A stretch of DNA of 64,000 nt. It comes from Spizellomyces punctatus DAOM BR117. Taxonomy: Eukaryota. Of the stretch, positions 1-39,563 are shown in pieces. The stretch lies in the NCBI GenBank assembly GCA_000182565.2, contig KQ257463.1; one strand, given 5' to 3'. The notes beneath the pieces are model-generated. The model ran no database searches. It was given only the letters and a program-made list of their open reading frames with translations, and was not told the origin of the DNA. The number at the start of each line of letters is the position of its first letter. Within the stretch, counting starts at the first letter, position 1. Both the position numbers and the translations under genes were made by a program.

Positions 1-85
1 CTCAACCCTAACCCTAACCCTAACCCTAACCCTAACCCTAACCCTAACCCTAACCCTAACCCTAACCCTAACCCTAACCCTAACC

Positions 86-126
<41 letters not shown>

Positions 127-255
127 CCCTAACCCTAACCCTAACCCTAACCCTAACCCTAACCCTAACCCTAACCCTAACCCTAACCCTAACCCTAACC
201 CTAACCCTAACCTAACCCTAACCCTAACCCTAACCCTAACCCTAACCCTAACCCT
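1..255 (+). repeat. Terminal telomere (CCCTAA)n, about 42 units, left chromosome end
   Basis: Near-perfect CCCTAA array at the window start, with variant units near 105-110 and 207-215. Confidence 0.97.
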
Positions 256-1129
256 GCTATGTGTCCTGGTTTCCTGCACCTGAAGCAGGCTCCCTTCTTC
301 CTGAGTTCAACCTTCTCAGCTTCAGTGAGTCTGTTGAGCTTTAGCTGGTTGGAGGTGCTGATGTTGTCAATCTCCATGGGGACCACTCCCATCTCTTGAG
401 GCTTCTGGTTCCAGTGGAACTGGGGCTGGTTGGAACCATGGGTGTGCTTCCTACTGTAGGAGTACTGGATTTGGTCCACTCTGTCTGCTACTGCTGCTGC
501 TGTGGCCAGGTTGAGAGTGGATCCTGGGTTGAGTTCCAGCTGCTCTTGAACTCTGGGCTTGAGACCTCTGATAAACTTGTCCAACTTCTCAGCCTCAGAC
601 AAGTCATCAATCTCCAAGCAGAGGGTGCTAAACTTGGTGAGATATTCTTGAACAGAGCCCATCTGCCTAAGCTTTGCTAGTTGGTCTCTTGCAGACCTCA
701 TAGCATTGGCAGGGAGGAAGTAGGCTCTGAGGGCTGTCTTGAGTTCATCCCAGGTGGTGATTCTTCCAGGCTGACCTTCAGGGTGGCTCTTCACATGACT
801 GTGCCACCAGACTTCAGCATACAGCTCCAGGTAGGTTGTGGCAACCATGAGTTGGGCTTGGGGTGACAGGTTGGTGGCTGCTTGGAAGTATTCTTCAAGT
901 CTGGTGATGTAGGTCCTAAGTTCTTGGACCTTCCTGTGCCCCTTGTAGGTCCTTAGCTTGCTCTGGAGGACTTTGACAAGGGTCTTGTCAACTCTGGCTG
1001 AGTCCTGGGGTGGGGTGCTGGTGCTGGCTGGCATGGTGAACTGCTGGAGTCTTGCTTGGTACAGTTGTTCTTTGGCTGTGGTCTCATCCAAGTCAAGGAT
1101 GGCCTGGAAGAGGGCTTGCTCCTGGGGAG
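256..1129 (-). pseudogene. gag: Ty3/gypsy (family A) gag fragment, cut by the telomere inside the zinc knuckle and by a copia LTR at about codon 2
   Basis: Capsid motifs ([36 protein letters not shown]) and [11 protein letters not shown]; aligns by eye with gag at 37269-38180. Confidence 0.9.
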
Positions 1130-1641
1130 TATTGAAACTTAGCGTTTGGAACACTGATTTCCTGTGTAGAAATCACTTCTGAAAGGCCTAGTAATGCCTG
1201 TGGCCGCTAGTAAGACTTCTGGGTGCAGTAACTTGTGGGATAACACGCTTGTATTAATCCAGAGACATTCAAAAGTCCCCTTTATATAACCCAGTACATT
1301 CTCCAGCCTCCCTCCACCTTTGTTTACTGTTTACATGCTTCAGCCCACTTGTTTACATGCTCAGCAGTGCTCAGCAGTGCTCAGCAGCTTCAGCCATGCC
1401 TTGGCAAACATTACCTGAAGATCTAGATCATCACAAACCTTCCAGACCTTCTAAGAGTGCTTACATGATGATTTACCCCTTTAAATCATTCCACACGCGT
1501 CTGTGATCATTCTGATTACTCTAAGTCCAATTCCCCACGTTGTAACTTAGCCAAATCAGATGTGAACTGTCTAATGACATCCCAGCATGATCTCACATGA
1601 TTTATAGATCATACAGCGTGGTTTAAGCCTGAATCTCAACG
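1130..1641 (-). repeat. Copia A 3' LTR (512 bp)
   Basis: Near-identical to 2133-2644 and 6047-6558; preceded on the minus strand by PPT GAGTGGGAG. Confidence 0.92.
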
Positions 1642-2132
1642 CTCCCACTCATTGAATCATCTGATTTCCGACAGAGACCCATTTTACCACAAAGTTTAAG
1701 GTGCTTTGTCTTGGGTAAAGCCTTGGTGAGAATGTCAGCCGTCATTTCTTCTGTCTGACAGTACTTGAGGCTGATTTTCTTGTCTTCTACTGCTTGTCTG
1801 ATGAAGTGGTGCCGCACATCAATGTGTTTGGTCCTTGCATGATGTGTTGGGTTGTTGGCAAGCGCTATGGCGCCCTGATTGTCACCATACAACGTTGTAG
1901 GACCACTTTGCTGATGTCCTAGCTCGCCTAGAAGTGTTCTGAACCAGATAACTTCCTTGGTAGCTTGACAAAGAGCCATGTACTCTGACTCTGTTGATGA
2001 TAGAGCAACTGTAGGTTGCCTCTTGCTTTGCCAGCTGACTGTGCTGCCGCCAATCTTGACTAAGAAGCCAGTGGTAGACTTCCTGAAGTCCAAATCACCG
2101 CCCCAATCTGCATCAGAGTATGCAGATAGCTC
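1623..2132 (-). pseudogene. Copia A RNase H fragment of a second copy, interrupted at 2132 by another copia A LTR
   Basis: SDADWGG, STTESEYMAL-like, DNQGA, RTKHIDVRHHF and ADILTK motifs; duplicates 2626-3135. Confidence 0.9.
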
Positions 2133-2644
2133 TATTGAAACTTAGCGCTTGGAACACTGATTTCCCGTGTGGAAATCACTTCTGAAAGGCCTAGTAATGC
2201 CTGTGGCCGCTAGTAAGACTTCTGGGTGCAGTAACTTGTGGGATAACACACTTGTATTAATCCAGAGACGTTCAAAAGTCCCCTTTATATAACCCAGTAC
2301 ATTCTCCAGCCTCCCTCCGCCTTTGTTTACTGTTTACATGCTTCAGCCCACTTGTTTACATGCTCAGCCGTGCTCAGCAGTGCTCAGCAGCTTCAGCCAT
2401 GCCTTGGCAAACATTACCTGAAGATCTAGATCATCACAAACCTTCCAGACCTTCTAAGAGTGCTTACATGATGATTTACCCCTTTAAATCATTCCACACG
2501 CGTCTGTGATCATTCTGATTACTCTAAGTCCAATTCCCCACGTTGCAACTTAGCCAAATCAGATGTGAACTGTCTAATGACATCCCAGCATGATCTCACA
2601 TGATTTATAGATCATACAGCGTGGTTTAAGCCTGAATCTCAACG
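2133..2644 (-). repeat. Copia A 3' LTR
   Basis: 512-bp direct repeat. Confidence 0.92.
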
Positions 2645-3954
2645 CTCCCACTCATTGAATCATCTGATTTCCGACAGAGACCCATTTTACCACAAAGTTT
2701 AAGGTGCTTTGTCTTGGGTAGAGCCTTGGTGAGAATGTCAGCTGTCATTTCTTCTGTCTGACAGTACTTGAGGCTGATTTTCTTGTCTTCTACTGCTTGT
2801 CTGATGAAGTGGTGCTGCACATCAATATGTTTGGTCCTTGCATGATGTGTTGGGTTGTTGGCAAGTGCTATGGCGCCCTGATTGTCACCATACAATGTTG
2901 TAGGACCACTTTGCTGATGTCCTAGCTCGCCTAGAAGTGTTCTGAACCAGATAACTTCCTTGGTAGCTTGACAAAGAGCCATGTACTCTGACTCTGTTGA
3001 TGATAGAGTGACTGTGGGTTGCCTCTTGCTTTGCCAGCTGACTGTGCTGCTGCCAATCTTGACTAAGAAGCCAGTGGTAGACTTCCTGAAGTCCAAATCA
3101 CCGCCCCAATCTGCATCAGAGTATGCAGATAGCTCCCACTTGCTCTGAATGCCACCCAGTTGAAGTCCTAGGTCTCTGGAGCCATTCAGGTACCGCATGA
3201 TCCATTTGACTGCTATCCAGTGCTGATGTCCGGGGTTTCCTTTGGCTACCAGTCTGGCCTTGTAGCGCTCTACAGAGCCATCTGACTTGAGTTTCAGCTT
3301 GAAAACCCACTTGCAGCCCACTGTGGATCTTCCTGGTGGTAGTTTGACTAAGTCCCATGTCTGATTCTCCATCAGAGAGTCATATTCTGCTTTGACAGCT
3401 GCCTCCCACTGTTTGGCATCATGTCTGGTCCTAGCTTCAGGCAGAATGCTGGGTTCTTCCTGTGGAACTTCCCCAATGGTGAAGGCAAAAGCCAGATTTG
3501 ACTGAGTTGGCTTTGCAATCCACCACTCTCCCGGTGGTTTGTGAAATCTGGCACTCTTCCTGCTGAGTTCTGGCACTTCCTCAGCATCCTGGAAGTCGTC
3601 CCCATCATCTTCTGATGCTGAAGAGTTGTCTGGAGTGATGCTAGATGGTCTCTGAGTCTCTTGAACCGTCCCTAGCCCTTCTTGGTCGTCCAAGAACGAA
3701 GGCTCCCCTCCCAGAGGCATCTGTAGCTCTTGGTCTTGCTGTGGTACACTCTGCAGTCGCTGCTGAGTGCTCCACATCAAGTTTTCATCAAAGATGACGT
3801 CCCTTGACATGATAACTTGGTTCATTTCAGGTACCCACAGTCTGTAGGCCTTACTCTGAGTGCTGTAGCTGACCATGACTGCCTTCTTGGCCTTCTCATC
3901 AAGTTTTGACCGCTTTTCTTTTGGAATATGAGTGTAGGCCACGCAGCCAAACAC
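2626..3954 (-). pseudogene. pol: Copia A pol 3' part: integrase tail, RT N-terminus, RT core deleted, RNase H
   Basis: FGCVAY, CKWVFKLK and YKARLVAKG fused directly to NPGHQHWIAVKWIMRYL; no YVDD motif. Confidence 0.88.
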
Positions 3955-5867
3955 TCTGAGGTGCTGGAGATCTGGTTTACTGCCTGTAAACTCTTGAATG
4001 GTGTTGATTGTTTGCTGAGTGCTGCAGTGGGGCTCCTGTTCCTGAGATAGACCACTGTCATGATTGCCTCGCCCCAGAACTTGTAGCTGAGTTCACTGTG
4101 GTGCAGCATGCACCTTCCCATTTCCACCAGCATCCTGTTCATCCTCTCAGCAACACCATTCTGCTCTGGTGTGTAGGGGGTGCTGAATTGCTGCTGAATT
4201 CCCTTCTGTTTGCAGAATTTCTTGAATTCTTCGCCCATATACTCTCCCCCATTGTCTGATCTGAGAGTTTTGATCTTCTGTCCTGTGAAGTTGGTTGCCC
4301 AGGCCTCAAACTCCTTGAATTTGCTGAGAACCTCACTCTTCTCCTTCAGAAGATAAACTGCCGTCATCCTTGACTTGTCATCAATGAATGTGACAAAGTA
4401 CTTTGCCCCACCATGACTTGGTGTCTTCATGGGCCCACACACATCACTGTGAACCACCCCCAGCAGTAGAGCCGCTCTAGCTGCTTCTCCCTTTGGAAAG
4501 GGACGCCTGGTGATCTTTCCAATGGCACAGGCTTCGCATGGTGATGTTTCTGTGTGACTCTTGACCTCCAGACCGCTTCCCAGCTGGTTCCTAGCCAAGA
4601 TTTTGATGCTGTTGACGTTCAGGTGTCCTAACCTGCGATGCCAGAGGTCCAAACTCATTCCAGAGGCTATGTTTGCATGTTCTCTTGCATGAAACATGTA
4701 TAGACCGCCCCCTAGAGTTCCCTGGATTGCTTCCTGACCGTCTGAAGTCTTGATACAGCATCCCTTGCTGCCAAACTCAACTTTGGCACCGTTTTCAGTG
4801 GCTCTTCTTACTGAAAACAAGTTCTTTTCAAGCTTGGGAACAAACCACACGTCTCTGAGGGTACAGAATCGGTTTCTGCCTGTCTCAAGTGTGATCTGGC
4901 CCTTCCCTATTGCCTGAACTGTTCTGTTGTCCGCCAGATGGACTTGAATTGGTGACATCTCCATGTAATTGGTCATCCAATCCTTCCTGTGTGACATGTG
5001 CTGTGAAGCACCCGAGTCCACAATCCACCAGACTGCTCCCTGAGAGGTTTTGGTGTCATCTCCTGACTGAGCAAAGAATAGGAACTCATTCTGAGTTGCC
5101 TGACTGGTGCTGGCTTGATTGGCTTGTTGTTTGGTGTCCGCCAGAAACTTCCTGCAGTCCTTCTTGAAGTGACCCTTCTTGTTGCAATAGAAGCACTTCC
5201 CTGCTATCTTCTTGGTCCCACCATGCTTGCCAACCTTCTGCCCACCATCCCTGCTGAAAAAGGCCTTCCCTTTGCTATCTCCTTCACTCCCAGCTTCCTT
5301 CCTGCGTGTTTCTTCATGCAAAAGCCGTGAGGTGAGGAATTCCAGCATCAGAGAATCACTCCTGGCCTCCAAAGACACCACCAGCTGTTCATAACTCTCT
5401 GGTAGGCTGTAGAGTAGGGTGATGACTTGGTCTTCTTCACTGACTGGCGCCCCAATGGCCTCCAACTGCTGAGCCATTGTCCTGACCGTGTTTATGTGTC
5501 CCAACATGCCCCCAGTGCCATCTTCCATCTTCAGAGTGAGAAATTTCCTCCTTAGATAGAGCCTACTGGCAATTCCTTTCCTTTGGTGGACGTCACTGAG
5601 CTTTAACCAGGCCTCTTTTGCAGTTACAGCGGTCTGTACATGCATGAGTTGGGCATCACTCAGTGACAGAGCAATTACTGCCATTGCCCGCTCATCCCTT
5701 CTCCTCCAATCCTTGTCAGAGGTTCCCTCCATGCTCTCATCTCCTTCAATCACACCCCACAGCCCCTTTTCCTTCAGCAACATCGTCATTTTGAACTTCC
5801 AGAGGTGGTAGTTCACACCATTGAACTTTTCCATTGTGAGTTTGGTGTCCAAGTCCGTGTTTGACAT
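3822..5867 (-). CDS. gag-pol: Copia A Gag (UBN2-type)-protease-integrase, frameshifted near 3990
   Basis: NYHLWKFKM, CFYCNKKGHFKKDC, WIVDSGASQHM, WHRRLGH, VHSDVCGP, RSDNGGEY, PEQNGVAER. Confidence 0.92.
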   Translation of the reverse strand: MSNTDLDTKLTMEKFNGVNYHLWKFKMTMLLKEKGLWGVIEGDESMEGTSDKDWRRRDERAMAVIALSLSDAQLMHVQTAVTAKEAWLKLSDVHQRKGIASRLYLRRKFLTLKMEDGTGGMLGHINTVRTMAQQLEAIGAPVSEEDQVITLLYSLPESYEQLVVSLEARSDSLMLEFLTSRLLHEETRRKEAGSEGDSKGKAFFSRDGGQKVGKHGGTKKIAGKCFYCNKKGHFKKDCRKFLADTKQQANQASTSQATQNEFLFFAQSGDDTKTSQGAVWWIVDSGASQHMSHRKDWMTNYMEMSPIQVHLADNRTVQAIGKGQITLETGRNRFCTLRDVWFVPKLEKNLFSVRRATENGAKVEFGSKGCCIKTSDGQEAIQGTLGGGLYMFHAREHANIASGMSLDLWHRRLGHLNVNSIKILARNQLGSGLEVKSHTETSPCEACAIGKITRRPFPKGEAARAALLLGVVHSDVCGPMKTPSHGGAKYFVTFIDDKSRMTAVYLLKEKSEVLSKFKEFEAWATNFTGQKIKTLRSDNGGEYMGEEFKKFCKQKGIQQQFSTPYTPEQNGVAERMNRMLVEMGRCMLHHSELSYKFWGEAIMTVVYLRNRSPTAALSKQSTPFKSLQAVNQISSTSECLAAWPTLIFQKKSGQNLMRRPRRQSWSATALRVRPTDCGYLK

Positions 5868-6034
5868 GTCTGAGCTGATTTGGTGAGTGGATTTGTTGTT
5901 GGGGAAGAGGTAAAATCGTCCTAGTATGGTAGGTGGTCCAAATATGAGGTTGGGAAGGAGATAGGTCCGTCAGGAAGATGGTGTGGCCGTCAGAAAAGAG
6001 ATTTGAAGCAGGAAAATATCAGTGATAGCTATCA

Positions 6035-6046
6035 GGGCTCATAACC
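6035..6046 (-). promoter_or_regulatory. Primer-binding site GGTTATGAGCCC (half-tRNAiMet type)
   Basis: Abuts the 5' LTR; complementary to the tRNAiMet anticodon-arm sequence GGGCUCAUAACC, as in Drosophila copia and Ty5. Confidence 0.85.
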
Positions 6047-6558
6047 TATTGAAACTTAGCGCTTGGAACACTGATTTCCCGTGTGGAAATCACTTCTGAA
6101 AGGCCTAGTAATGCCTGTGGCCGCTAGTAAGACTTCTGGGTGCAGTAACTTGTGGGATAACACACTTGTATTAATCCAGAGACGTTCAAAAGTCCCCTTT
6201 ATATAACCCAGTACATTCTCCAGCCTCCCTCCGCCTTTGTTTACTGTTTACATGCTTCAGCCCACTTGTTTACATGCTCAGCCGTGCTCAGCAGTGCTCA
6301 GCAGCTTCAGCCATGCCTTGGCAAACATTACCTGAAGATCTAGATCATCACAAACCTTCCAGACCTTCTAAGAGTGCTTACATGATGATTTACCCCTTTA
6401 AATCATTCCACACGCGTCTGTGATCATTCTGATTACTCTAAGTCCAATTCCCCACGTTGTAACTTAGCCAGAGCAGATGTGAACTGTCTAATGACATTTC
6501 AGCATGATCTCACATGATTTATAGATCATACAGCGTGGTTTAAGCCTGAATCTCAACA
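6047..6558 (-). repeat. Copia A 5' LTR
   Basis: 512-bp direct repeat, TGTTG...CAATA. Confidence 0.92.
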
Positions 6559-8248
6559 CCATGATGCCCTCAGAGTTTGGAGGCCCTACCTGGAAGGAAC
6601 ACCCTTCAAAGTTATCTCAGACCACCAGTCCCTCAAGTGGCTACAGAACCAGCCCTTCTTGACCAGAAGACAAGCCAGATGGGTCATGAACTTCCAATCT
6701 TTTGACTTTGAGATTGGTTATGGCCCAGGAAGACTCCACACAGTGGCAGACATCCTGTCTAGAAGACCAGACCTGGCCCCAAAATGCATCAAGTGCAAAG
6801 CCTTGGTGACAGCAGAGTTAAATGCCATAACTCACAGCACCAACACCCTTGAAGAGAGGTTAAAGACCAGCACCACTTTGGACCCAGAACTTCAAGAGCT
6901 TATTGAAGCATTGGATGACCCCAATGACTTACAAGCTCAAGAGCAAAGGCTGAAGCATCTTAGGCACCAAGATGGCTTACTATACTATCAAAATAGGATC
7001 TTTGTCCCAAGTGATCCAGACCTAAGGTTAAGCCTACTCCAAGAAACCCATGACACTCAGTATGCTGGACACTTTGGCATCACCAAGACCTATGATGCCC
7101 TAGCCAGGTATTACTACTGGCCAAGAATGTACAAGGACATCAAGAAGTATGTCAAGTCTTGTGATTCCTGCCAGAGAAGCAAACCTAGTCAGCAACCACC
7201 GGCAGGCCTGCTGCAGCCCCTTCCAGTACCCAAGACCAGATGGATCCAGATCTCCATTGACCTGATCCCTGACCTACCCATAACTTCCTCTGGTCACAAT
7301 TCCATCTTTGTCATTGTGGACAGATTGTCAAAGAGAGGCCACTTTATCCCCACCACCACCAGAGCCTCAGCCAAGGACCTGGCCCTGCTCTTCTTGAAGC
7401 ATATCTTCAAGCACCATGGCCTGCCAGAAGTAATTGTATCTGATAGAGACACCAAGTTCACCAGTTCATTCTGGTCCAACTTGATGCAACTCTTAGGCTG
7501 CAACACCCTCCTAGCCACTGCAAGGCACCAGCAGACCAATGGACAGGCAGAGAGAACCATCAAGACTTTGAAGATCTACCTGAGAGCTTTCCTGGAGTAC
7601 AATATGAAGAATTGGGAAGATCTTCTACCCTTTGCTGAGTTTGCCTACAACAACAGCATCTCAGAAACTACAGGCTTCACCCCATTCTACTTGGAGAATG
7701 GCCAGCACCCCAGGACCCCAACAACACCACCAGGAGAAAGCAGTAATCCTGAAGCAACAGACTTCCACCAGTACATCCAGCAACTGCTTCAAGTAGCCAA
7801 GGACAACATGATACTGGCCCAAGAAAGACAAGTTCAGCAAGCCAACAAGTCTCTCAGCAATGCCCCAAGCTACCCCATAGGCTCCAAAGTTTGGCTATCC
7901 AGAGAAGGCATCACCCCAGAAGAAGAAGCCCAGAGACCAGCCCAGAAACTTCTTCACCCCTGGCTTGGACCCTACAGAATCAAGGCCAAGGATGAATTTC
8001 AGAATTACACCCTTGAGCTCCCCAGCACCATGAAGATCCACCCAGTGTTCCATGTGAGACTCCTCAAGCCTTACCTGGACCCCACAGAGGACTTCCCTAC
8101 CAGACCAGTACCACCTGAACCTGAGCCCATCATCCAGCAAGGAGAAGAGTTTTGGGAAGTTGAGAAGATACTGGACCATAAGACCAGAAGAAAGAAGAAC
8201 CTCTACCTCATCAAGTGGAAAGGCTACCCCTCCTCTCAGAACACTTAG
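6559..8248 (+). pseudogene. pol: Gypsy A RNase H-integrase-chromodomain, stopped by the telomeric insert
   Basis: [46 protein letters not shown]...YLIKWKGY. Confidence 0.9.
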
Positions 8249-8295
8249 GGTTAGGGTTAGGGTTAGGGTTAGGGTTAGGGTTAGGGTTAGGGTTA
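8245..8295 (+). repeat. Interstitial telomeric tract (TTAGGG)8 TTA
   Basis: Perfect repeats read directly from the sequence. Confidence 0.95.
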
Positions 8296-8333
8296 CCTAG
8301 CCCAGAAGGGAGCTTAATCTTAAAGTGGGGGAG

Positions 8334-8763
8334 TGTAACAGAATTCTTCTGTTAGTTACTTTGTCTTTAGTTAGTCAGTCAGTAGTATCAGTAGTGTAGT
8401 AGTTTGGACTTAGAGATTTTCAGTGCAAGTCCATTAGTCTTAAAATGGCAGGCACATGTCTCTGAAACAAATGTTAGTAAGGAGGCAGGCCTAAAGGTTG
8501 ATTTACCTAAATTAGGCAAGTCAGAGACATGTGTCTGAAACAAATTCCCCTTACTGAGCTGCAGAAAATAATTTTTGCTGCAAAGATAAGGAGGATACAT
8601 TGTGACTCAGTAGTTTAGAAGTCTTTTCATTGGTTAGAGATAAAACTGAAGCCTTGGCATTTTTGTCTATAAAAAGGGAGTGTTCCCACACCCCCCTCTA
8701 ATAGAATAACCAAGTTTTCCCCAAGTCTTCCTAGTCTTCTTGTCCCTGCTGCCAATTGTTACA
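8334..8763 (+). repeat. Gypsy A 3' LTR (430 bp variant)
   Basis: TG...CA ends after the PPT; termini match the LTR at 32579-33069. Confidence 0.85.
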
Positions 8764-8903
8764 GGTTTGCCCAGACCGGTTGAGCTCTGTGGCTCAGCCA
8801 GTGGGGCTGTCCCCGGGACTACTGGGCTTTCCCAGCATGACCCATGCGATTGCATCCAATGCAACACCTTACGTACGTATGATTTTCATCATGATGAGGT
8901 AAT

Positions 8904-11412: not shown

Positions 11413-11767
11413 TGTTAGCAATCACAGGTAGCAGACCTCTAAGCCACTGAACTGCTATGCCATGCAGGCATGTCTTCACTGCGCCATGCGCCACATGCGC
11501 CATGCATGTCGTTAGATTTCTCTTGCATCGCTAGTAGTATATTAAAGAATGACTTCTTAACATACAATAGACTTCTTAACATCTATACAAGAGTAGAGTT
11601 CACTCTGTTCCTACTCTCTATCACTAATACATTCCCTATAGGAATATACCCTCACTAGCTAACAGGTTATGAGCCCTGGAAGTAGAGTACCACTTCAAAG
11701 AACACCGCCTCTCACATGCAGCAAAATGCTGGCATGATGAGGCAGCGCTCAAGGAACTTCTACATGC

Positions 11768-14700
11768 ATGCAAGGCATACCATATTTGGACGAACCCTCC
11801 GAGCAGGACCTCCTAAATCAGTCTGTATATCATGACACACTCCCGGAGGACCCTGAAAACACAGACCCAGATGTTGGGTACAGCAGATACCTATTGGACC
11901 CTGTACGGGACCCTGGGGCGCACGTGCCCAAACAGGAAATGGACCAAATAAAGATGGAAATATGGCCAAGCACTCTGGCTGAGGGCACCAGTGAGAGAAG
12001 AATGGAATACTCTGCAGAATATCCTCCAAGTGGGACATATGCTGTGCGCCCGGAGGACATGGACTCGAGCAATTGAATAGATAGGCTTGAAGCACTTGTT
12101 GGACAGCTCATTCTCACTGTAAAAAGAGAAAACAGCAAAGAAGCTGTGAGGACTGAACCAACAGTGCAAACCCATTATGGAAAAGCACAGTATGCGGACG
12201 AGCAAAGGGCAAGACTGCATACACCTAGTGGGGGCATACCACACAGTGGGCCGCCAAACCCTCTCCTACAACCACCCAGCACTTACCACATAGCGATGTC
12301 AGTGAGGTCAAATTCACCCACAAGCTCAGTTTACATGTCAACATCAAGTACGGCAGACAAGCGCGGATGCAGAGCATTTGTGGATGGGATGCTAAAGGAT
12401 ATCGGGCAATATAATGGGGAACCAAATACTATGAAGCTCAATACATTTCTGGGCAGAGTAGACATGGTAATAAAGCACCAGATGGTTCCACCTGACATGG
12501 TTGTAGACTTTGTGAGCACCAAATTCATGGGATTAGCTCAACAATGGTGGACATCACTGTCACCAACAAGACAGGCAAGCTTTACTGCTTGGTATGATCA
12601 AGAGGATGGACACGGACGAACAATAACTGGGTTACGGTCTGCCTTGTATGTGCGCTTCATGCCACGAACACATATGCATGATACATTGAGATGGTTGAAA
12701 CAATTAAAGCCCAAGACAAACCAGTCCCAGAGCATGGATGAGTTTGTGGCATATTTCAACTCTCAGATATACTCACTACCATCTATGCCTGATTTTATTA
12801 AACAGGACTACTTCATTTCTGCCCTACCGGCAGAAGTAGCAGCACTGCTGCAATCCAATGAGGAAAACCTTACCTCTCTGGAAACCCTACAAGAAGCGGC
12901 AACCCGAATCTATCCAGTGATTCACAAGCATGCGAAACCCCAGGGAGGCAGTATGCACGCCGCCCCTGCACAGGTCACGCAAATGGACAATGCATCTGGA
13001 CAATCCACGACTTCCAAAAAGGGAAAGAAAGGAAAACAAAAGAAGCAAAATGAGGGCCACATCGAGAAGCAACCGAATTCAAACCAACACTCAAATCAAA
13101 ACTCGAATCAAAGTACACCTTGACCATGCAGATACTGCAATGCATCACATCCAAGGACTGTATGTCCCTTGATCCTCAAGCTGGTCCAGAAACAATCCAA
13201 CTGCTTGAGTGCAAGCCTAACAGAGGCTTGCCATGTGGAAATGGTACACGATGATGTGCCGTACAGTGCTCTTATCAATTCCGGCGCGACTGACCATATG
13301 ACACCCAATAGGGGTCATTTGGATCCCTCCACCATATATCAGGATGTGAGGAATGTCAGCTTAGCTGACAACACCATTTTAAAATCAACTGTACAAGGCA
13401 ATGTTATCATCAAAGCAGATGGATATTCGACTCCACTCGAATTGCGTGATGTCCTCCATGTTGATGGGCTGCAGAAAAACCTAATCTCCATCCCCAAATG
13501 TAATGAAAATGGTGTGGATGTAACCTTCCACAGTAGTGGAGAAGTTTCTCTCATGAAAAACAGGTGACAAATTGCAAGCGGCATATGATGGAACAATGCA
13601 TATTACCTGGAAGGAACCCTGAAACCCCAGGGCTTTCCAGATACAGAAGTCTGTGCAACAGAGGTATCACCTGCCCTTGCACATGCCAGACTCGGACACA
13701 TAGGACAACATGTCCTAGGAAAGATGGCATTGGCTATGCTCAGCTGGCCCATAGTGGGGGCTCACAGTCATAGGGACTGTGAGGCATGCATACTTGGAAA
13801 ATCATCCTGCACACCATTTCCACCAGCAAACAAAGAACCAAGAGAACTTTGTGAGCTAATTCACTCCAATCTACAAGGACCATTCTGAATTACAGGCCTG
13901 GATGGAGAATGCTACGCTCTCGTGTACATTGAGTACACCTCTAGGTATGGTGTCACTTACTGCATACCAAACAAGGAAGCAGAGACCATCCTCTCCAAAT
14001 TCAAGGAATTCAAGGCATGGCTCGAATGCACCACAGACAAGAAAATATGCACTGTTCATACAGACCGAGGAGGCGAATATCATGGCATATTCCACAAGTA
14101 CCTGATGGACTGTGGCATCCAGCATCAACAGACTACGGCATACTCCAGTCAACAGAACAGCATTGCTGAGCGCTGGAACCATACAAGCTTAGGGCGAGTA
14201 TGCGCCATCTTCGCAGACATGAAACTGCCATGGAAACTATGGGCCATCCTAATACAAATGGTGACCTACCTCCATGATCTCACTCCAAACTCTTTGAGTG
14301 ACAAAACCCCCCACGAGCTACTATTTCAATGCCGCCCCAACGTCACGCACCTCAGGCACATTGGCTGCATTGCGTATGCCCATGTCCCTGCTGCTGGCAG
14401 AGACAAGATGGCCAACAGAGCAAGGAAGACATACCTAGTGGGGTATGCCCAACAAAATGGCACCAAGGCCTACCTTGTTTGGGATCTGGTATGCAATGCT
14501 ATTGCGACCTCCAGGGACATCAAGTTTAACGAAGACGCCCCTCTTGAACTCAAATATCAGCAAGATCCTAGCACTATGGATCTGCTGGATGAGACCACTT
14601 CCGATGATGATCAGGAGTATCAAATTGACTACATCATGGACAAATGCCAGACTCGCGTGCACAAGCCTGAATACCTTGTGAAATGGACTGGTTATACAGA

Positions 14701-16390: not shown

Positions 16391-16524
16391 CTGAGACTGT
16401 GAATCATGGATGGCCTGGATAATATTCAAATGCATGCATGACCCGCGTATGTGGAGGCAAACTCAGTGGAAGCTGAAATGCACGGGGATTGTGAAACACG
16501 ACAACTGAATATGATTGATATAAA

Positions 16525-23598: not shown

Positions 23599-23834
23599 TC
23601 ATCCTCAAAGATTTCTTCAATCGAGGATGGTTCCTCTTGTTCTGCCCAGGTGGGCTCATCGGCCTCCATGGTTTGGTACTCAATTGGGGGGTTTTCAGTT
23701 GTCGTTGATTGAACCTGGGATTGGGACATTCTGACTCCACATCCCCTTCCTGGTCCTGTACCTCTGGTAGAGGGTTGTCCGGGTCCACGAGGAGTTCCTC
23801 AACCTCGTGGCAACTGCGTGGGGTACGGGGCAGC

Positions 23835-32300: not shown

Positions 32301-33085
32301 TGAACGCTTGCTGTTGCACTAGGTTGGTGAGGGTTACCAGGAGCCTGTCTAGATGACCAGCACCTGGAGGGATTGGCAGCTGTGGTGGGGGTGGCATCAG
32401 TGCCAGCACTGGTTCTTGTGGCAGCTGGTTGTTCCCCAGTACAGCCTTGAATTGGAAGACTGGGTCCTCTCCCTCTTCCTCGGCAGTGATAAATGGGTGA
32501 TCGTCTTCAGATATTTCGGATCATTCATGGGGCTCTGGGCTGAAGGTAGCAGCTTCTGAGTTTCTATCAGAGGCAAATTGTAACAGGCTAGCAGGGACAA
32601 GAAGACAACAGAAAACTAGGGAAGACTTGGTTACTACTTGTTATTCTCCTTTGAGGGGCCTCAGAGAGGTCCTCTTTTTATAGACAAAAGGGGCTGACAA
32701 ATGCTATATCCTAACTACCCAATCAGATCTCACCCACATCATCCTAAACTGTTTGTCAGCCTATTGCACCATTTGCAACCAATCAGATCTTGTACATGTC
32801 ATCCTAAACTATTTGTCAGCCTATTGCACCATTTATAGCCAATCACAAGTGAGACAAGTCATCCTAAATACACTGTGCCACTTGATTAAAAGGGGCAGAT
32901 GCTAGTGTGTCAGGATACTCATCTAATTTAGCCAGAAATGGCTAAATCTGCTTATTTATCTAATTCTGGTCAAATGAATGCTGACACCATCAGCAAAGTC
33001 ATGTGACCACTAGTTTGGAACCACATCTAACCAGTATAACCATAGCACTGACAGAAGAATTCTGTCACACTCCCCCACTTTAAGA

Positions 33086-36000
33086 TTAAGCTCCCTTCTG
33101 GGCCAGGAACTCCTTCAAGATTTCTCTGCCATGGGGTAGGATGTTCTCTTCTGGTTCCCAAGTGTTCTGAGAGGAGGGGTATCCTTTCCACTTGATGAGG
33201 TAGAGATTCTTCTTCCTTCTGGTCTTGTGGTCAAGAATCTTCTCAACTTCCCAAAACTCTTCTCCTTGCTGGATAATTGGCTCAGGCTCAGGGGGTACTG
33301 GTCTGGTAGGGAAGTCCTCTGTGGGGTCCAAGTAAGGCTTGAGGAGTCTCACATGGAACACTGGATGAATCTTCATGGTGCTGGGGAGCTCCAGGGTGTA
33401 ATTCTGAAATTCATCCTTGGCCTTGATTCTGTAAGGTCCAAGCCAGGGGTGAAGAAGTTTCTGGGCTGGTCTCTGGGCTTCTTCTTCTGGGGTGATGCCT
33501 TCTCTGGATAGCCAAACTTTGGAGCCTATGGGGTAGCTTGGGGCATTGCTGAGAGACTTGTTGGCTTGCTGAACTTGTCTTTCTTGGGCTAGTATCATGT
33601 TATCCTTGGCTACTTGAAGCAGTTGCTGAATATACTGGTGGAAGTCTGTTGCTTCAGGATCATTGCTTTCTCCTGGTGGTGTTGCTGGGGTCCTGGGATG
33701 CTGGCCATTCTCCAAGTAGAATGGGGTAAAGCCTGTAGTTTCTGAGACACTGTTGTTGTAGGCAAACTCAGCAAAGGGGAGAAGATCTTCCCAATTCTTC
33801 ATGTTGTACTCCAGGGAAGCTCTCAGGTAGATCTTCAAAGTCTTGATGGTTCTCTCTGCCTGTCCATTGGTCTGCTGGTGTCTTGCAGTGGCTAGGAGGG
33901 TGTTGCAGCCTAAGAGTTGCATCAAGTTGGACCAGAATGAACTGGTGAACTTGGTGTCTCTGTCTGATACAATCACTTCTGGGAGGCCATGGTGCTTGAA
34001 GATGTGCTTCAAGAAGAGCAGGGCCAGGTCCTTGGCTGAGGCTCTGGTGGTGGTAGGGATGAAGTGGCTTCTCTTTGACAATCTGTCAACAATGATAAAG
34101 ATGGCATTGTGACCAGAGGAAGTCATGGGTAGGTCAGGGATCAGGTCAATGGAGATCTGGCTCCATCTGGTCTTGGGTACTGGGAGGGGCTGCAGCAAGC
34201 CTGCTGGTGGTTGCTGACTAGGTTTGCTTCTCTGGCAGGAATCACAAGACTTGACATACTTCTTAATGTCCTTGTACATCCTTGGCCAGTAGTAATGCCT
34301 TGCTAGGGCATCATGGGTCTTGGTGATGCCAAAGTGTCCAGCATACTGAGTGTCATGGGTTTCTTGGAGTAGGCTCAACCTTAGGTCTGGGTCACTAGGA
34401 ACAAAGATCCTGTCCTGGAAGTAGAGTAACCCATCTTGATGGCTGAGGTACTTGAGCCTTTGTTGCTGGTCTTCTGGTCTCCTGGGGTCATCCAAAGCTT
34501 GGATGAGCTCTTGAAGTTCTGGGTCTTCTGTGGTACTGGTCTTCAATCTCTCTTGAAGGGTGCTGGTGGTGTGGGTCACAGCATTCAACTCTGCTGCCAC
34601 CAAGGCCTTGCACTTGATGCATCTTGGGGCCAGGTCTGGTCTTCTAGACAGGATGTCGCCACTGTGTGGAGTCTTCCTGGGCCATAGCCAATCTCAAAGT
34701 CAAAAGATTGGAAATTCATGACCCATCTGGCTTGTCTTCTGGTCAAGAAGTGCTGGTTCTGTAGCCACTTGAGGGACTGGTGGTCTGAGATAACTTTGAA
34801 GGGGGTTCCTTCCAGGTAGGGCCTCCAAACTCTGAGGGCATCATGGATGGCTAACAGCTCTTGTTCTCTGGTGTCATATCTGGTCTCTGCTGGGGCCATC
34901 TTCCTGGAGTGGTAGGCAACTGGTCTCATGCCTTTCCCATCATCCTGCCCAAGCCATGCTCCAACTGCATAACCTGAGGCATCAGGGAAGACAGTGGTAG
35001 GCAAGGCTGGGTCAAAGGGTCTGAGTACAGGAGCTTTGGTGACCATATCCTTCAGCTGCTGAAAAGCTTTCTCCTGAGGTTCAGACCAGGTCCAGGGCTT
35101 GTCATTCCTCAACACGTCTGTCAATGGTGCAGCTTGCTCTGCCAGGTCCTCCAGAAAGCTATGGAAGTAGTTCACCAGGCCCATGAACTGTCTGACTTCA
35201 GTGACACTCTTGGGGGTGGGCCATTCTTGAACAGTCTGCACTTTCTTGGGGTCAAGCTTGACTCCTTCATGTGAGACTACATGGCCAAGAAACTCTACTT
35301 CTTGCTTGAAGAACTGGCACTTGCTGGGGTTGGCATACAGCTTGTTCTGCCTGAGGGCTTGCAGAACCTGCTTGAGGTGGTCCAGGTGATCTTCTGGGGT
35401 CTTGGAGTAGATGAGGATGTCATCTAGGTAGACAATAACAAAGATGTCCAAGAAGGGTCTAAGGACATCATTCATCAAAGTCATGAAAGTGGCTGGGGCA
35501 TTGGTCATTCCAAAGGACATGACCAGGAACTCAAAGTGACCATATCCGGTTCTGAAGGCTGTCTTGGGGATGTCTTCTGGGTGGACTCTGATCTGGTAAT
35601 AGCCTGACTTCAGATCTAGCTTGGTAAACACCTGGGCTCCATTCAGCCTATCCATCAGCTCATCAATCCTAGGGAGGGGATATCTGTTCTTGATGGTGAT
35701 CTTGTTCAGAGCCCTGTAGTCCACACACATCCTCAAAGACCCTTCTTTCTTCTTGACAAAGAGGATAGGTGCTCCAAATGGGCTCTTGGATGGTCTGATG
35801 TGGCCTGCCTCCAGAAGCTCTGAAAGCTGCTTCCTCAGTTCTTCTAACTCCAAAGAAGAGAGGTGGTAGGTTGGTCTCCAGGGGGTCTGGTTGGGGTCAC
35901 TGAGTTCAATTCTGTGATCTACTGATCTCTCAGGGGGAAGTCCTGGGGGAAGCTCTTCAGCAAAGACATCTTGATAGTTTTCAAGAAGCTTGGTGACTTT

Positions 36001-37293
36001 GGAATCCATGGTGTCTGGAGGGGTGCTGGTATCTTGAGGGTTCTTGAGATACACAGCAAAAGCTGTTGCTGTCCTCTTCTTCAGTGTTCTGGCCAACATC
36101 TTTACTGATACCATGGTGATAAGATTGGACTTCTGGGATTTGTTGGAAGAGCTGGCCTGCTTAACAGACCATCTGACTCTGGGGTGCTGGGAGGTGGTGA
36201 AGGTCACAGTGTTCTTGTTGTAGTTGATACTGGGATTCCTCCAGGCAAACCAAGGTATACCCAGGATCAAGTCAAACTTGATTGGGGCTACTATAAAGTC
36301 TGACTGTTCTGTGTAGGTTCCTACTGAGTACTGAAGACCTTTGACAAAGCCTATTTCTTGGTGCTTTCTGTCATCAGCCATAGAGATTTCTGCTCCAGGG
36401 AGAGAATGAGTCACCAGTTGTGCCTTCTTGACAAAGGACTGTGACACATAGAGTTGGTTTGCCCCATTATCCAGGAGAATGGTTACTGGGATTCCTTGGA
36501 TTCTACCTTGCACAGTCAGCAAGTGACTCTGGGGAATCCTTGGCCCTTTGGGGGTACTTAAAGAGTATGGAGCCACCTCTACTACATGGATCTTGCTTTC
36601 TTGGTAGGTGGCCTGGGTGGTCTGGGGTTCTGGGGTTCTCTGGGGTTCCTGGGTTTTCTGGGGTTCTAGGGTTCTCTGGGGTTCTGGGGTTCTCTGGGGT
36701 TCTTGGGTTCTCTGGGGTTCTGGGGTTCTCTGGGGTTCTTGGGTTCTCTGGAGTTCTTGGGTTCTCTGGAGTTCTGGGGTTCTCTGGGATTCTGGGGTTC
36801 TCTGGGGTTCTGGGGTTCTCTGGGGTTCTGGGATTTTCTGGGTTTCTGGGGTTCTCTGGGATTCTGGGATTCTCTGGGTTTCTGGGGTTCTCTGGGATGC
36901 TGGGGTTCTCTGGGGTTCTGGGGTTCTCTGGGGTTCTGGGGTTCTCTGGGTTTCTGGGGTTCTCTGGGGTTCTGGGGTTCTCTGGGTTTCTGGGGTTCTC
37001 TGGGATTCTGGGGTTCTCAGGGGTTCTGGGATTTTCTGGGTTTCTGGGGTTCTCTGGGATTCTGGGATTCTCTGGGTTTCTGGGGTTCTCTGGGATGCTG
37101 GGGTTCTCTGGGGTTCCAGGTAAAGTCCATGGATAGTTAAAGTCTCAGGGGTGGTTTCAGGTGGGTCCAATAGGTCCAAAGGTTGAATAACAGGAGAGTG
37201 TACCAGGTGGTGGGTGTCAGGGTTTTGGTTCTTGATATCTTCCCCAGTAGAGGCAGAACCTCCATCTTCTACTGAGTCTGCTTGCCATTTCCC
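33086..37293 (-). CDS. pol: Gypsy A Pol (repeat spacer-PR-RT-RH-IN-chromodomain), one 1-bp deletion at ~34657
   Basis: [26 protein letters not shown], integrase and chromodomain motifs. Confidence 0.92.
36620..37118 (-). repeat. 18-bp coding minisatellite, PE(P/T/S)QRT repeats
   Basis: GAACCCCAGAGAACCCCA-type units, roughly 27 copies, in frame. Confidence 0.92.
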
Positions 37294-38180
37294 TGCTGCT
37301 TGGTCTTCAATGGGCAGAGGGGGGCAATATGGCCTGGTTTTCTGCACCTGAAACAGGCTCCCTTCTTTCTGAGCTCAGTCTTCTCAGCCTCAGTGAGTTT
37401 GGAGAGAGGCTTCCCAGCATTGGTGGATATACTATCTATCTCCATAGGGACTACTCCAGAGTTCTCAGCCTTGGGGGAGTAGTAGCTGGTGGCCTGGCTT
37501 CTTTTCTGGTAGCTGAACTGGATCTGGTCAATCCTATCAGCTGTTGCTGCAGCTGTGGCTAAGTTGATGGTACTGGTGGGATTAAGCTCCAGTTGTTCCT
37601 GAACCCTGGGTTTAAGCCCTCTGATAAACTTGTCTAACTTTTCAGCTTCTGACAAGTCATCCACCTGAAGGCATAAAGTATTGAACTGGTTCAGGTACTC
37701 CTTTACTGAGCCTTGTTGTTTGAGCCTGGCCAACTGGTCTCTTGCTGCTCTGGTGGCATTTGCTGGGAGGAAGTTCTCTTGAAGGGCTCTCTTGAACTGG
37801 TCCCAAGACTGGATTCTGAGAGGGGATCCTACTGGGTGGTTCTTGACATGGCTTTGCCACCAGACTTCAGCATGGAGTTCCAAGTAGGTGGTGGCTACTA
37901 ACAGTTGGCCTTCTGGTGATAGATCTGCAGCTGCCTGGAAGTACTCTTCAAGTCTGAGGAGGTATGTCCTAATCTCTTGGACATTCCTGTTGCCTTTGTA
38001 GGGCTTCAACTTGCTTTGGAGGACTTTTACCAGGGATTTATCTACTCTGGGTTCATACTGAGCAGTGGCTGGTGTGGTGGAGTTCAGCTGCTGGAGCTTT
38101 GCTTGATAAAGCTCCTGCCTGACCTGGTCTATGTCAAGCTCAGCAATGGTGTTGAAGAGAATCTCTTCCTGGCTGGTCAT
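37269..38180 (-). CDS. gag: Gypsy A Gag
   Basis: Retrotrans_gag-type motifs and [14 protein letters not shown] knuckle. Confidence 0.93.
37287..37293 (-). promoter_or_regulatory. Predicted -1 ribosomal frameshift site G GGA AAT
   Basis: X XXY YYZ heptamer just before the gag stop; pol lies in the -1 frame. Confidence 0.7.
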
Positions 38181-38211
38181 GGTGGTAATGGGGTGGAGTC
38201 TTGGGTAGTTA

Positions 38212-38470
38212 CAATATTACTTGTAACAACAACAATAGGGTGGGTCACAGGCCCAAGAGATGCAATGTTACTTGCAGTCAAGATAGGGTGGGTCACAGGC
38301 CCAAGAGATGCAATGTTACTTGCAGTCAAGATAGGGTGGGTCACAGGCCCAAGAGATGCAATGTTACTTGCAGTCAAAATAGGGTGGGTCACAGGCCCAA
38401 GAGATGCAATGTTACTTGCAGTCAAAATAGGGTGGGTCACAGGCCCAAAATATGCAATATTACTTGCAAG
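38212..38470. repeat. 48-bp tandem repeat (about 5 copies) in the gypsy A 5' leader
   Basis: AATGTTACTTGCAGTCAAGATAGGGTGGGTCACAGGCCCAAGAGATGC units. Confidence 0.9.
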
Positions 38471-39009
38471 TACAACTGGTGGGGAGGATACAGGGGGACT
38501 CTACAGCTTCTTCACAATCCCACAATAGAAAAGCTCTATCTGTTTTATCAGAGCTTCTGATGCTAACCAAGTGGTGTGTCTGGTAGTAGTTCTGGAGGTT
38601 GTGCTGGGGGTAGGTTGGTGGTATGGGGTGGTGTGGGCTGGTCTGTAGGAGTCCTTGAAGGGGGTTCTGGGCATAGGTTGGGCCTGGGATAAGAGGCAGG
38701 GGTCTTCTGATATTACTCAGAAGGACTAGGGCTGGGTCTGGGGTCTGGGGTCTGTTGGTCTTCTGATATTACTCAGAAGGTCTAGGGCAGGCTCTGGGGG
38801 TCTGGGGATCTTAGCTTCTAATCTCTCACAGAAGGTCTAAGAGTCTGGGGTTGTTGTCTAAGGTGGTGCTACCATGTAACAGGCTAGCAGGGACAAGAAG
38901 ACAACAGAAAACTAGGGAAGACTTGGTTACTACTTGTTATTCTCCTTTGAGGGGCCTCAGAGAGGTCCTCTTTTTATAGACAAAAGGGGCTGACAAATGC
39001 TATATCCTA

Positions 39010-39285
39010 ACTACCCAATCAGATCTCACCCACATCATCCTAAACTGTTTGTCAGCCTATTGCACCATTTGCAGCCAATCAGAACTCATACATGTCATCC
39101 TAAACTATTTGTCAGCCTATTGCACCATTTGCAACCAATCAGAACTCATACATGTCATCCTAAACTATTTGTCAGCCTATTGCACCATTTGCAACCAATC
39201 AGATCTTGTACATGTCATCCTAAACTATTTGTCAGCCTATTGCACCATTTATAGCCAATCACAAGTGAGACAAGTCATCCTAAAT
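39010..39285. repeat. 60-bp CCAAT-containing tandem repeat in the gypsy A LTR
   Basis: Consecutive 60-nt lines nearly identical; two fewer units in the other LTR. Confidence 0.9.
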
Positions 39286-39563
39286 ACACTGTGCCACTTG
39301 ATTAAAAGGGGCAGATGCTAGTGTGTCAGGATACTCATCTAATTTAGCCAGAAATGGCTAAATCTGCTTATTTATCTAATTCTGGTCAAATGAATGCTGA
39401 CACCATCAGCAAAGTCATGTGACCACTAGTTTGGAACCACATCTAACCAGTATAACCATAGCACTGACAGAAGAATTCTGTCACACAAATGGGTCGAAGA
39501 TGATAGAGGGTCAAATGTCTTCCAATTCCGTAGTGTGTGTGGTAGTCTCAGGTGGTGCTACCA

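What the first reader, a model, noticed from the sequence alone, without database searches (positions are those of the whole stretch)
1..8333. An 8.3-kb TE cassette bounded by outward-facing telomere tracts, both added to the same gypsy family on its coding strand
Seen: (CCCTAA)n at 1-255 joins a minus-strand gypsy A gag, and (TTAGGG)8 at 8245-8295 joins a plus-strand gypsy A chromodomain. In both cases the G-rich strand extends the element's sense strand, so 1-8295 has the layout of a linear minichromosome made only of retroelement DNA. Inference: this family may be a recurrent site of breakage plus telomerase healing (possibly targeted TE cutting or elimination), or telomere-capped linear TE molecules exist. 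A read-collapse artefact is a real alternative.
Basis: partly seen in the sequence, partly recalled or inferred. Interest (0 to 1): 0.8.

Follow-up and report, generated by a model that had tools for sequence, protein, structure and literature searches.

The report
Healed chromosome end plus internal telomere patch
The left telomere tract is an ordinary chromosome end healed onto a broken retrotransposon, while the right tract is a 51-base patch of telomere repeats inside an otherwise continuous retrotransposon copy, so there is no telomere-capped cassette.

Summary
Both tracts exist as described. (CCCTAA)42 lies at 4-255 at the record's end, and a perfect (TTAGGG)8.5 lies at 8245-8295. They are the only telomere tracts in the 64 kb.

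The right tract is not an end. The same Ty3/gypsy copy resumes in register after it:
- the last six pol codons and the stop (8297-8317);
- the polypurine tract (8322-8333);
- a complete 430-bp 3' LTR (8334-8763).

Against a full-length copy in the window, 49 telomeric bases replace 52 chromodomain bases. A TT at the 5' junction is in register with the repeat. This matches the known short interstitial telomeric insertions made while a double-strand break is repaired.

The left tract is a normal chromosome end healed inside a gag zinc knuckle. That gag is only 66% identical in protein to the gag of the pol family's full-length copy in the window.

The pieces between the tracts are rearranged copia and gypsy debris, not a unit.

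I could not test the assembly. No genome is held, the reads were at most 51 nt, and the tool masked the tract.

The scan holds no earlier telomere finding for this genome. The result is ordinary, of low interest.

The parts
1..255 (-). Terminal telomere tract. It reads (CCCTAA)42 on the plus strand, so the G-rich strand runs toward the record's end. Two variant units.
256..1129 (-). Ty3/gypsy gag fragment, from about codon 2 to inside the CCHC zinc knuckle. The telomere is joined directly to it (...CACATAGC|AGGGTTAGGG on the minus strand).
1130..6557 (-). Ty1/copia composite: LTR 1130-1640, a 492-bp pol tail, LTR 2133-2643, the internal region with most of RT deleted, and LTR 6047-6557. It holds a 1003-bp tandem duplication. 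The flanks GGGAG and ACCAT do not match, so there is no target-site duplication.
6559..8246 (+). Ty3/gypsy (chromovirus) pol fragment: RNaseH tail, integrase, SH3-like domain and the first 31 profile positions of the chromodomain. It is 93.7% identical in DNA to the full-length copy.
8245..8295 (+). Interstitial telomeric tract, a perfect (TTAGGG)8.5. After the shared TT, 49 nt of repeat replace 52 nt of chromodomain coding sequence. This puts a TAG stop in frame at 8246-8248.
8296..8333 (+). The same element resumes in register: the last six pol codons (LAQKGA) and the TAA stop at 8297-8317, then the polypurine tract AAAGTGGGGGAG at 8322-8333.
8334..8763 (+). Complete 3' LTR of that element (TGTAACA...TGTTACA). 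Its U3 differs from the full-length copy's LTR, while the ends and the TATA region are shared.
   Evidence: repeat boundary seen as loose ends at 8763-8765
32579..39485 (-). Full-length copy of the same pol family, used as the 'empty site' proxy. LTRs at 39485-38875 and 33069-32579. The 52 nt missing from the other copy are 33159-33108.

Best explanation
Two separate and ordinary telomerase events lie in a transposon-filled chromosome end.

(1) Left tract. The chromosome was truncated inside a Ty3/gypsy gag gene, and telomerase built a new telomere on the broken 3' end. This is now the chromosome end.

(2) Right tract. About 8 kb inward, a double-strand break hit the chromodomain-coding part of another gypsy copy.
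- About 52 nt were lost.
- Telomerase, or a polymerase copying telomeric template, extended the 3' end that finished in ...CACTT by AGGG(TTAGGG)7TTA.
- The extended end was then rejoined to the other side of the same break.

The result is a short interstitial telomeric sequence inside an otherwise collinear, already dead element.

Shown here: the tracts, their junctions, the in-register continuity and the replaced segment.

Inferred: the break, the role of telomerase and the order of events.

The gag and pol fragments face outward because copia-mediated rearrangement brought them together, not because they form a unit.
For: - Tracts and junctions.
- Continuity across the right tract. Left anchor 8200-8246 matches the full-length copy at 45 of 47. 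Right anchor 8296-8356 matches at 58 of 61. The offset differs by only 3 nt, with 52 reference nt against 49 tract nt (alignment).
- The downstream part is a proper element end: pol stop, polypurine tract and a 430-bp LTR with inverted termini.
- TT at the 5' junction is in register with the repeat.
- Passages read in PMC2246262. Mammalian telomeric insertions came with flank deletion in 50% (65 of 130) of rodent and 52% (13 of 25) of primate loci. Nucleotides in register were seen in 67-80% of informative loci.
- Passages read in PMC7215372. In the horse, deletion occurred at 20 of 66 loci and register nucleotides at 31 of 40.
- Passages read in PMC7367193. In a fungus, 19 of 24 de novo telomeres grew from seeds of 1-4 nt.
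- PMC1635262 (abstract and passages) reports frequent terminal truncation and transposon recombination at fungal chromosome ends.
- The right junction, (TTAGGG)n followed by sequence, has the wrong polarity for any natural chromosome end. Reads from true ends alone could therefore not have produced it (inference).
Against: - No read or contig was shown to span the tract. The three raw-read runs had reads of at most 38, 51 and 50 nt. The tool masked 8238-8303, and the bin 8242-8275 has depth 0 in all 4 runs.
- The 'empty site' is a paralogous copy, not an orthologous allele.
- The near-equal lengths, 49 nt in for 52 nt out, are a coincidence under this model. They would be more natural for a consensus artefact or a templated patch.
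- The 3' junction (GGGTTA|CCT) shows no clear microhomology.
- Telomerase involvement cannot be told from copying of the nearby telomere.
- Whether the left tract is a physical end rests only on its position and polarity at the record's start.
Confidence: 0.6

Rival explanations
1. Assembly or consensus artefact. The 51-bp tract, or its length, was produced by the assembler or polisher in a multi-copy element. One route is telomere-bearing reads of another gypsy copy being forced onto this copy. The tract could also be a collapsed longer one.
For: - The element is multi-copy. Only about 20-30% of laid reads carry this copy's alleles near the tract. In run X9 these are 17 of 79 reads at 8227 and 50 of 170 at 8337.
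- The replacement nearly conserves length, 49 against 52 nt.
- The record is a gapped scaffold, with N runs at 44518-45019 and 48479-48578.
- PMC1635262 (passage) notes that the one internal telomere-like array in a fungal genome sequence was a mis-assembly.
Against: - The right junction has a polarity that no true chromosome end supplies, so a chimeric read would be needed (inference).
- Both flanks carry this copy's own alleles.
- A 107-nt contig of run X2 matches 8140-8237 without a mismatch and ends about 8246. That is exactly where the telomeric and the intact versions diverge, as expected at a graph branch. This is weak evidence, and X2 may be the assembly's own data.
Confidence: 0.15
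2. Telomerase-independent templated patch. During repair or replication of a break in the chromodomain, the 3' end ...CACTT switched template to the terminal telomere tract only 8 kb away. It copied about 50 nt and switched back (microhomology-mediated template switching).
For: - The tract is inverted relative to the terminal tract and lies 8 kb from it. My recollection is that template-switch insertions favour a nearby, inverted donor; no paper was read for this.
- The inserted and lost lengths are similar.
- The terminal tract holds perfect runs long enough to serve as donor.
Against: - The product is identical in sequence to a telomerase product, so nothing here discriminates the two.
- The TT register at the 5' junction fits telomerase seeding equally well.
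- No second templated fragment or junction scar is present.
Confidence: 0.12
3. Acquired during reverse transcription. A gypsy copy that was truncated in its chromodomain and healed at some chromosome end was transcribed through into the telomere. Copy-choice recombination with a normal genomic RNA then produced a cDNA carrying the repeats, which integrated here.
For: - Length and frame are nearly preserved, 51 for 54 nt counting the shared TT.
- Subfamilies of this gypsy show mosaic relatedness: 98%, 87% and 94% identity in consecutive pol blocks, and a different U3 on a shared backbone.
Against: - It needs a second, unseen healed copy and two template switches without clear homology at the 3' junction.
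- The copy's 5' half is missing, so no target-site duplication can be checked.
- No other copy with the tract was found, but none could be looked for.
Confidence: 0.04
4. Positions 1-8295 are, or derive from, a telomere-capped linear molecule made only of transposon DNA, or this gypsy family is cut on purpose and healed.
For: - The two tracts face outward, and the G-rich strand follows the sense strand at both junctions.
- Passages read in PMC7367193 say internal tracts of more than 3 TTAGGG units are breakage-prone in another fungus. A break here would leave a G-rich 3' end on the 8.2-kb side.
Against: - The element runs on in register past the right tract.
- The two junction sites differ, and the gag is only 66% identical to the reference gag.
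- The interior is rearranged copia debris.
- Such a fragment would have no centromere (inference).
- With n = 2 in DNA that is about 70% gypsy by my rough count, no enrichment can be claimed.
Confidence: 0.02

Closest known systems
Short interstitial telomeric sequences inserted at repaired double-strand breaks in mammals (PMC2246262, PMC7215372; passages read)
   Same: - A short, exact run of telomeric hexamers at an internal site.
- Flanks collinear with a sequence that lacks the tract.
- Loss of a short stretch at the site.
- Nucleotides at the 5' junction in register with the repeat.
- PMC2246262 also deduced some insertion mechanisms from repeat-element consensus sequences, as was done here with a paralogous copy.
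   Different: - Here it lies in a fungal-type genome; earlier AI notes call it a chytrid, which I did not check.
- It sits 8 kb from a telomere.
- The 'empty' state is known only from a paralogue.
- No telomerase-RNA-derived flank is present.
De novo telomere formation after terminal truncation in fungi (Pyricularia/Magnaporthe: PMC1635262, PMC7367193, PMC8381367; abstracts and passages read)
   Same: - Telomere repeats joined directly to non-subtelomeric sequence, here a transposon gene.
- Transposon-rich ends with ectopic recombination among elements.
   Different: - No seed nucleotide can be shown at the left junction, because the ancestral sequence beyond the break is unknown.
- Only one chromosome end was seen.
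Internalised vestigial telomeres and MoTeR-generated interstitial telomeres of Pyricularia (PMC8381367, PMC7367193; passages read)
   Same: An interstitial TTAGGG tract of several units close to a chromosome end, of a length those papers report as breakage-prone.
   Different: - Those tracts mark boundaries between unrelated or tandemly added blocks, and they point toward the chromosome end (my inference from the mechanism described).
- This tract points away from the end and interrupts one continuous element.
Telomere-targeting retrotransposons (MoTeR and FoTeR of fungi: PMC7367193 passages read, PMC12857005 seen only in a search listing; HeT-A/TART and Athena-type elements recalled)
   Same: Retroelement sequence directly next to telomere repeats.
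   Different: - These are LTR elements of the Ty3/gypsy type, truncated at arbitrary internal positions rather than joined at an element terminus.
- The sense strand is followed by TTAGGG. Priming on the G-overhang would give the opposite arrangement (inference).

Membership tests
Short interstitial telomeric sequence inserted at a repaired break | A short run of exact telomeric repeats at a non-terminal site | tested here: met
   (TTAGGG)8.5 at 8245-8295 with 100% matches, and element sequence on both sides.
Short interstitial telomeric sequence inserted at a repaired break | Flanks collinear with a tract-less version of the same sequence | tested here: met
   The anchors match the full-length copy at 45 of 47 and 58 of 61, with an offset difference of 3 nt. 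The comparison is with a paralogue, not an orthologous empty allele.
Short interstitial telomeric sequence inserted at a repaired break | End-joining type change at the site (none, deletion, addition or duplication) and nucleotides in register with the repeat | tested here: met
   52 nt are lost and TT is in register at the 5' junction. Frequencies of these features are given in PMC2246262 and PMC7215372.
Short interstitial telomeric sequence inserted at a repaired break | Made by telomerase | not testable with these tools
   Sequence alone cannot separate a telomerase product from a copy of the nearby telomere.
Short interstitial telomeric sequence inserted at a repaired break | Present in the DNA (reads span it) | tested here: inconclusive
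   Reads were at most 51 nt. The tool masked 8238-8303, so depth is 0 in bin 8242-8275 in 4 of 4 runs. No joints were reported.
Healed (de novo) terminal telomere | Repeat tract at the physical end, with the C-rich strand 5' at a left end, joined abruptly to non-telomeric sequence | tested here: met
   The tract lies at 4-255 at the start of the record and is joined inside a gag zinc knuckle. Whether molecules end there was not tested.
Linear minichromosome or telomere-capped transposon molecule | Both tracts are termini, with nothing of the same sequence continuing beyond them | tested here: not met
   The gypsy copy continues for 468 bp beyond the right tract, through the pol stop, the polypurine tract and the LTR 8334-8763.
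Linear minichromosome or telomere-capped transposon molecule | Free molecules of about 8.3 kb exist | not testable with these tools
   This needs long reads or a Southern blot. No genome is held, and only short reads or contigs were available.
Internalised vestigial telomere (Pyricularia type) | Same polarity as the terminal tract, marking a boundary between blocks added at an eroded end | tested here: not met
   The polarity is opposite to the terminal tract, and the flanks belong to one element. The polarity criterion is my inference from the mechanism described in PMC8381367.
Telomere-targeting retrotransposon | A non-LTR or Penelope-like element joined to the repeats at a defined element terminus | tested here: not met
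   The domains are Ty3/gypsy gag, integrase and chromodomain. Both junctions lie inside coding sequence.

The most novel reading that the evidence does not exclude
The internal tract is a live fragile site. In a fraction of nuclei the chromosome breaks within it. Only the 8.2-kb distal side then carries a G-rich 3' end, so telomerase caps that side. The wrong-way polarity would also explain why break-and-heal has not removed the tract.
Probability: 0.05. Interest if true: 0.55.

Novelty: new member of a known kind. Interest (0 to 1): 0.2.

Why it matters
Mostly as a correction: there is no telomere-capped transposon cassette here. What remains is a tidy example, outside mammals, of a short telomeric insertion at a repaired break. 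The pre-insertion sequence can be read from a sister copy of the same transposon. It sits beside an ordinary healed chromosome end. If confirmed with long reads, it would show that telomerase (or telomere-templated repair) patches internal breaks in an early-diverging fungus as it does in mammals. It would also provide a natural 8.5-repeat internal tract for testing fragility close to a telomere.

Tried and rejected
- Whole-genome tabulation of telomere junctions: not possible, because no genome is held.
- Read support. The one run search listed 12 runs, of which 7 held part of the stretch and none held half of its words. The one read-laying run used X8, X9, X10 and X2. Reads were at most 51 nt and the tool masked the tract, so it says nothing for or against the junctions.
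- Exact-match scans of the metagenome collection for the left and right junction strings: 0 matches each.
- Protein search with the pol fragment, to look for other copies ending at the same codon. It found 1501 proteins at E <= 1e-30 among 8000 scored candidates. The best of the 120 proteins listed was 48% identical. This family is therefore not represented in that length range, and the test failed.
- Earlier notes of this scan: five look-ups, none about telomeres or this stretch.
- Taxon. The Atlas placed the CSN3 gene only as eukaryotic. The label 'chytrid' comes from earlier AI notes and was not checked.
- Rejected as an internalised old telomere, because the polarity is opposite and the flanks are collinear.
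- Rejected as a telomere-specific retrotransposon, because the element class and the strand arrangement are wrong.
- Considered, and kept only as a loose idea (about 30%). The gag(-) and pol(+) fragments may be the two sides of one element inverted by recombination between two oppositely oriented copia insertions, then truncated at gag. The layout and the missing copia target-site duplication fit. The very different identities to the reference copy, 71% against 93.7%, do not help.
- Print check. Searches turned up no listed title on telomeric insertions inside LTR elements of chytrids. I judged this from titles and the abstract openings in the search listings only, so it is weak evidence of absence.


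Full report
OBSERVATION

The window starts with CTC followed by (AACCCT)42 at 4-255, at 98% matches with two variant units. A perfect (TTAGGG)8.5 lies at 8245-8295.

A scan for three hexamers with up to one mismatch gave 41 matches. Of these, 35 were on the minus strand within 6-251 and 6 on the plus strand within 8245-8292. There were none elsewhere in the 64 kb and none in 100 shuffles. Both tracts are therefore real features of the record.

At the left, the minus strand reads gag and then TTAGGG. At the right, the plus strand reads pol and then TTAGGG.

WHAT THE TRACTS ARE JOINED TO

- 256-1129 (-) is a Ty3/gypsy gag: Retrotrans_gag 68.8 bits and Ty3_capsid 46.2 bits. It runs from about codon 2 to ...[11 protein letters not shown], inside the CCHC knuckle, where the repeats begin.
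- 6559-8246 (+) carries the tail of RNase H, the integrase zinc and core domains, the Tf2-type SH3 domain and the first 31 of 53 profile positions of a chromodomain.
- A full-length element of the same pol family lies at 32579-39485 (-). It has LTRs at 39485-38875 and 33069-32579 and a complete chromodomain, Chromo 69.4 bits over profile positions 1-51.

THE KEY RESULT

I aligned 8050-8900 with the full-length copy and then anchored the flanks exactly.

- 8200-8246 matches the reference at 45 of 47.
- 8296-8356 matches at 58 of 61.
- Between the anchors the reference has 52 nt (GGGAACC...GGAGTT, encoding the rest of the chromodomain).
- The copy has 49 nt there, AGGG(TTAGGG)7TTA.

After the tract the copy carries:
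- the last six pol codons LAQKGA and the stop (8297-8317);
- the polypurine tract AAAGTGGGGGAG (8322-8333);
- an LTR that starts TGTAACA at 8334 and ends TGTTACA at 8763.

Loose ends in the laid reads at 8763-8765 include the sequence TGGTAGCACCACC, which follows the 5' LTR of the full-length copy. This marks the same LTR boundary.

The right tract is therefore a patch inside one collinear element, not a terminus. It introduces a TAG stop at 8246-8248, so the copy is dead. The copy is also cut at its 5' side by a copia LTR at 6557/6559.

THE INTERIOR OF THE 'CASSETTE'

- 1130-6557 is a minus-strand Ty1/copia composite with three LTRs (1130-1640, 2133-2643, 6047-6557) that are 98-99% identical.
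- It holds a 1003-bp tandem duplication, 1130-2132 against 2133-3135 at 98.2% identity.
- Only 42 of 244 RVT_2 profile positions remain in its internal region.
- Its outer flanks, GGGAG and ACCAT, do not form a target-site duplication.

The gag and pol fragments were therefore brought next to it by recombination, not by one insertion.

The terminal gag is 66% identical in protein (193 of 293) and 71% in DNA to the gag of the full-length copy. The pol fragment is 93.7% identical in DNA over 1689 aligned positions. 'Same family' is thus only loosely true. The family is also mosaic: consecutive pol blocks are 98%, 87% and 94% identical, and the U3 of the LTR differs.

MECHANISM

The right tract has the anatomy of the short interstitial telomeric sequences described in mammals. 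These are exact hexamers inserted at a break, often with loss of a short flank and with nucleotides at the 5' junction in register with the repeat.

- In passages read from PMC2246262, deletion accompanied 50% (65 of 130) of rodent and 52% (13 of 25) of primate insertions. Register nucleotides were seen in 67-80% of informative loci, against less than 25% expected.
- In PMC7215372, deletion occurred at 20 of 66 horse loci and register nucleotides at 31 of 40.

Here TT is in register and 52 nt are lost.

[quoted passage not shown] This is reported as frequent at fungal chromosome ends (PMC1635262, abstract and passages). In PMC7367193 (passages), 19 of 24 such events grew from seeds of 1-4 nt.

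I infer two independent events, at 0.6 confidence. The steps 'break', 'telomerase' and 'rejoining' are inferred, not shown.

POLARITY

- The internal tract points away from this chromosome end. It cannot be a vestigial telomere of this end that was internalised by distal addition, the mechanism described for Pyricularia in PMC8381367 (passages).
- It also cannot come from reads of any natural chromosome end, because (TTAGGG)n followed by sequence is not an end polarity. This lowers, but does not remove, the artefact reading.
- A break within the tract would leave a telomerase-usable G-rich 3' end only on the centromere-less 8.2-kb side. I keep it as the novel case at 0.05.

RIVALS

- Assembly or consensus artefact, 0.15. 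The element is multi-copy, the patch nearly conserves length, and the scaffold has N gaps at 44518-45019 and 48479-48578.
- Template switching to the nearby telomere, 0.12. It cannot be distinguished by sequence.
- Acquisition by copy-choice during reverse transcription, 0.04.

CHANCE

From my own interval reading (not a tool count), about 12 kb of the first 40 kb is copia-type and most of the rest is Ty3/gypsy, roughly 70%. Two random junctions both falling in gypsy DNA would then be about an even chance. Both being sense-strand is 1 in 4. Two junctions cannot support recurrence.

WHAT COULD NOT BE TESTED

- No genome is held, so other ends could not be tabulated.
- The run search found runs of one coded organism. 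None held half of the stretch's words.
- Laying X8, X9, X10 and X2 on 7800-8800 gave reads of at most 38, 51 and 50 nt. The tool masked 8238-8303, so depth is 0 in bin 8242-8275 in all four runs, and no joints were reported.
- One weak hint came from X2. A 107-nt contig matches 8140-8237 with no mismatch, carries this copy's alleles, and ends about 8246, where the telomeric and the intact versions diverge. X2 may be the assembly's own data.
- Junction strings found nothing in the metagenome collection.
- A protein search found no close relatives; the best listed was 48% identical.
- The organism label 'chytrid fungus' comes from earlier AI notes. The Atlas search resolved only 'eukaryote'.
- TTAGGG is used as the telomere screen in a chytrid assembly paper, PMC11797018 (passages).

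VERDICT

- Observation: partly confirmed.
- Interpretation: partly supported. Breakage and telomerase action stand; the cassette, the family hotspot and the linear molecule do not.
- The finding is a new member of a known kind and of low interest, pending long-read confirmation.
- The scan holds no earlier finding of this kind for this genome or elsewhere.

Noticed in passing
window 11413-17998 (ORF 13889-16390, +): A Ty1/copia-type element (RVT_2 168.4 bits, retroviral SH3-like, rve) carries a chromodomain (PF00385, 30.4 bits against a cut-off of 25.1) between the integrase and the reverse transcriptase. It is flanked by 252-bp direct repeats at 11413-11664 and 17747-17998 (94% identical). 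To my recollection chromodomains are typical of Ty3/gypsy chromoviruses, so one in a copia-type pol may deserve its own look.
   Followed up: partly
window 36621-37116 (-): An 18-bp unit repeated 27.6 times lies inside the open reading frame of the full-length gypsy copy, between gag and protease. It encodes a long run of PEPQRT-like repeats.
   Followed up: no
window about 21400-32500: A tandem array with a period of 3798-3799 bp, made of pieces of a second gypsy family (gag plus LTR). Some units are 100% identical over 300 nt (families D6-D9).
   Followed up: no
window 1130-3135: A 1003-bp tandem duplication (LTR plus 492 bp of the pol tail) inside the copia composite. The internal region has lost most of its reverse transcriptase.
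   Followed up: partly
window 32739-32868 and 39015-39284: The two LTRs of the full-length gypsy copy differ in length (491 against 611 bp), consistent with a 60-bp repeat present in 2.2 against 4.5 copies.
   Followed up: no
window 44518-45019 and 48479-48578: Two runs of N (502 and 100 bases), so the record is a gapped scaffold.
   Followed up: yes
window 50553-51887 (+) and 60761-61408 (-): The first host-type genes appear about 50 kb from the end. One is an intron-free COP9 signalosome subunit 3 (COP9_hel_rpt 184 bits, PCI 52.8 bits). The other is a protein with two SH3 domains.
   Followed up: partly
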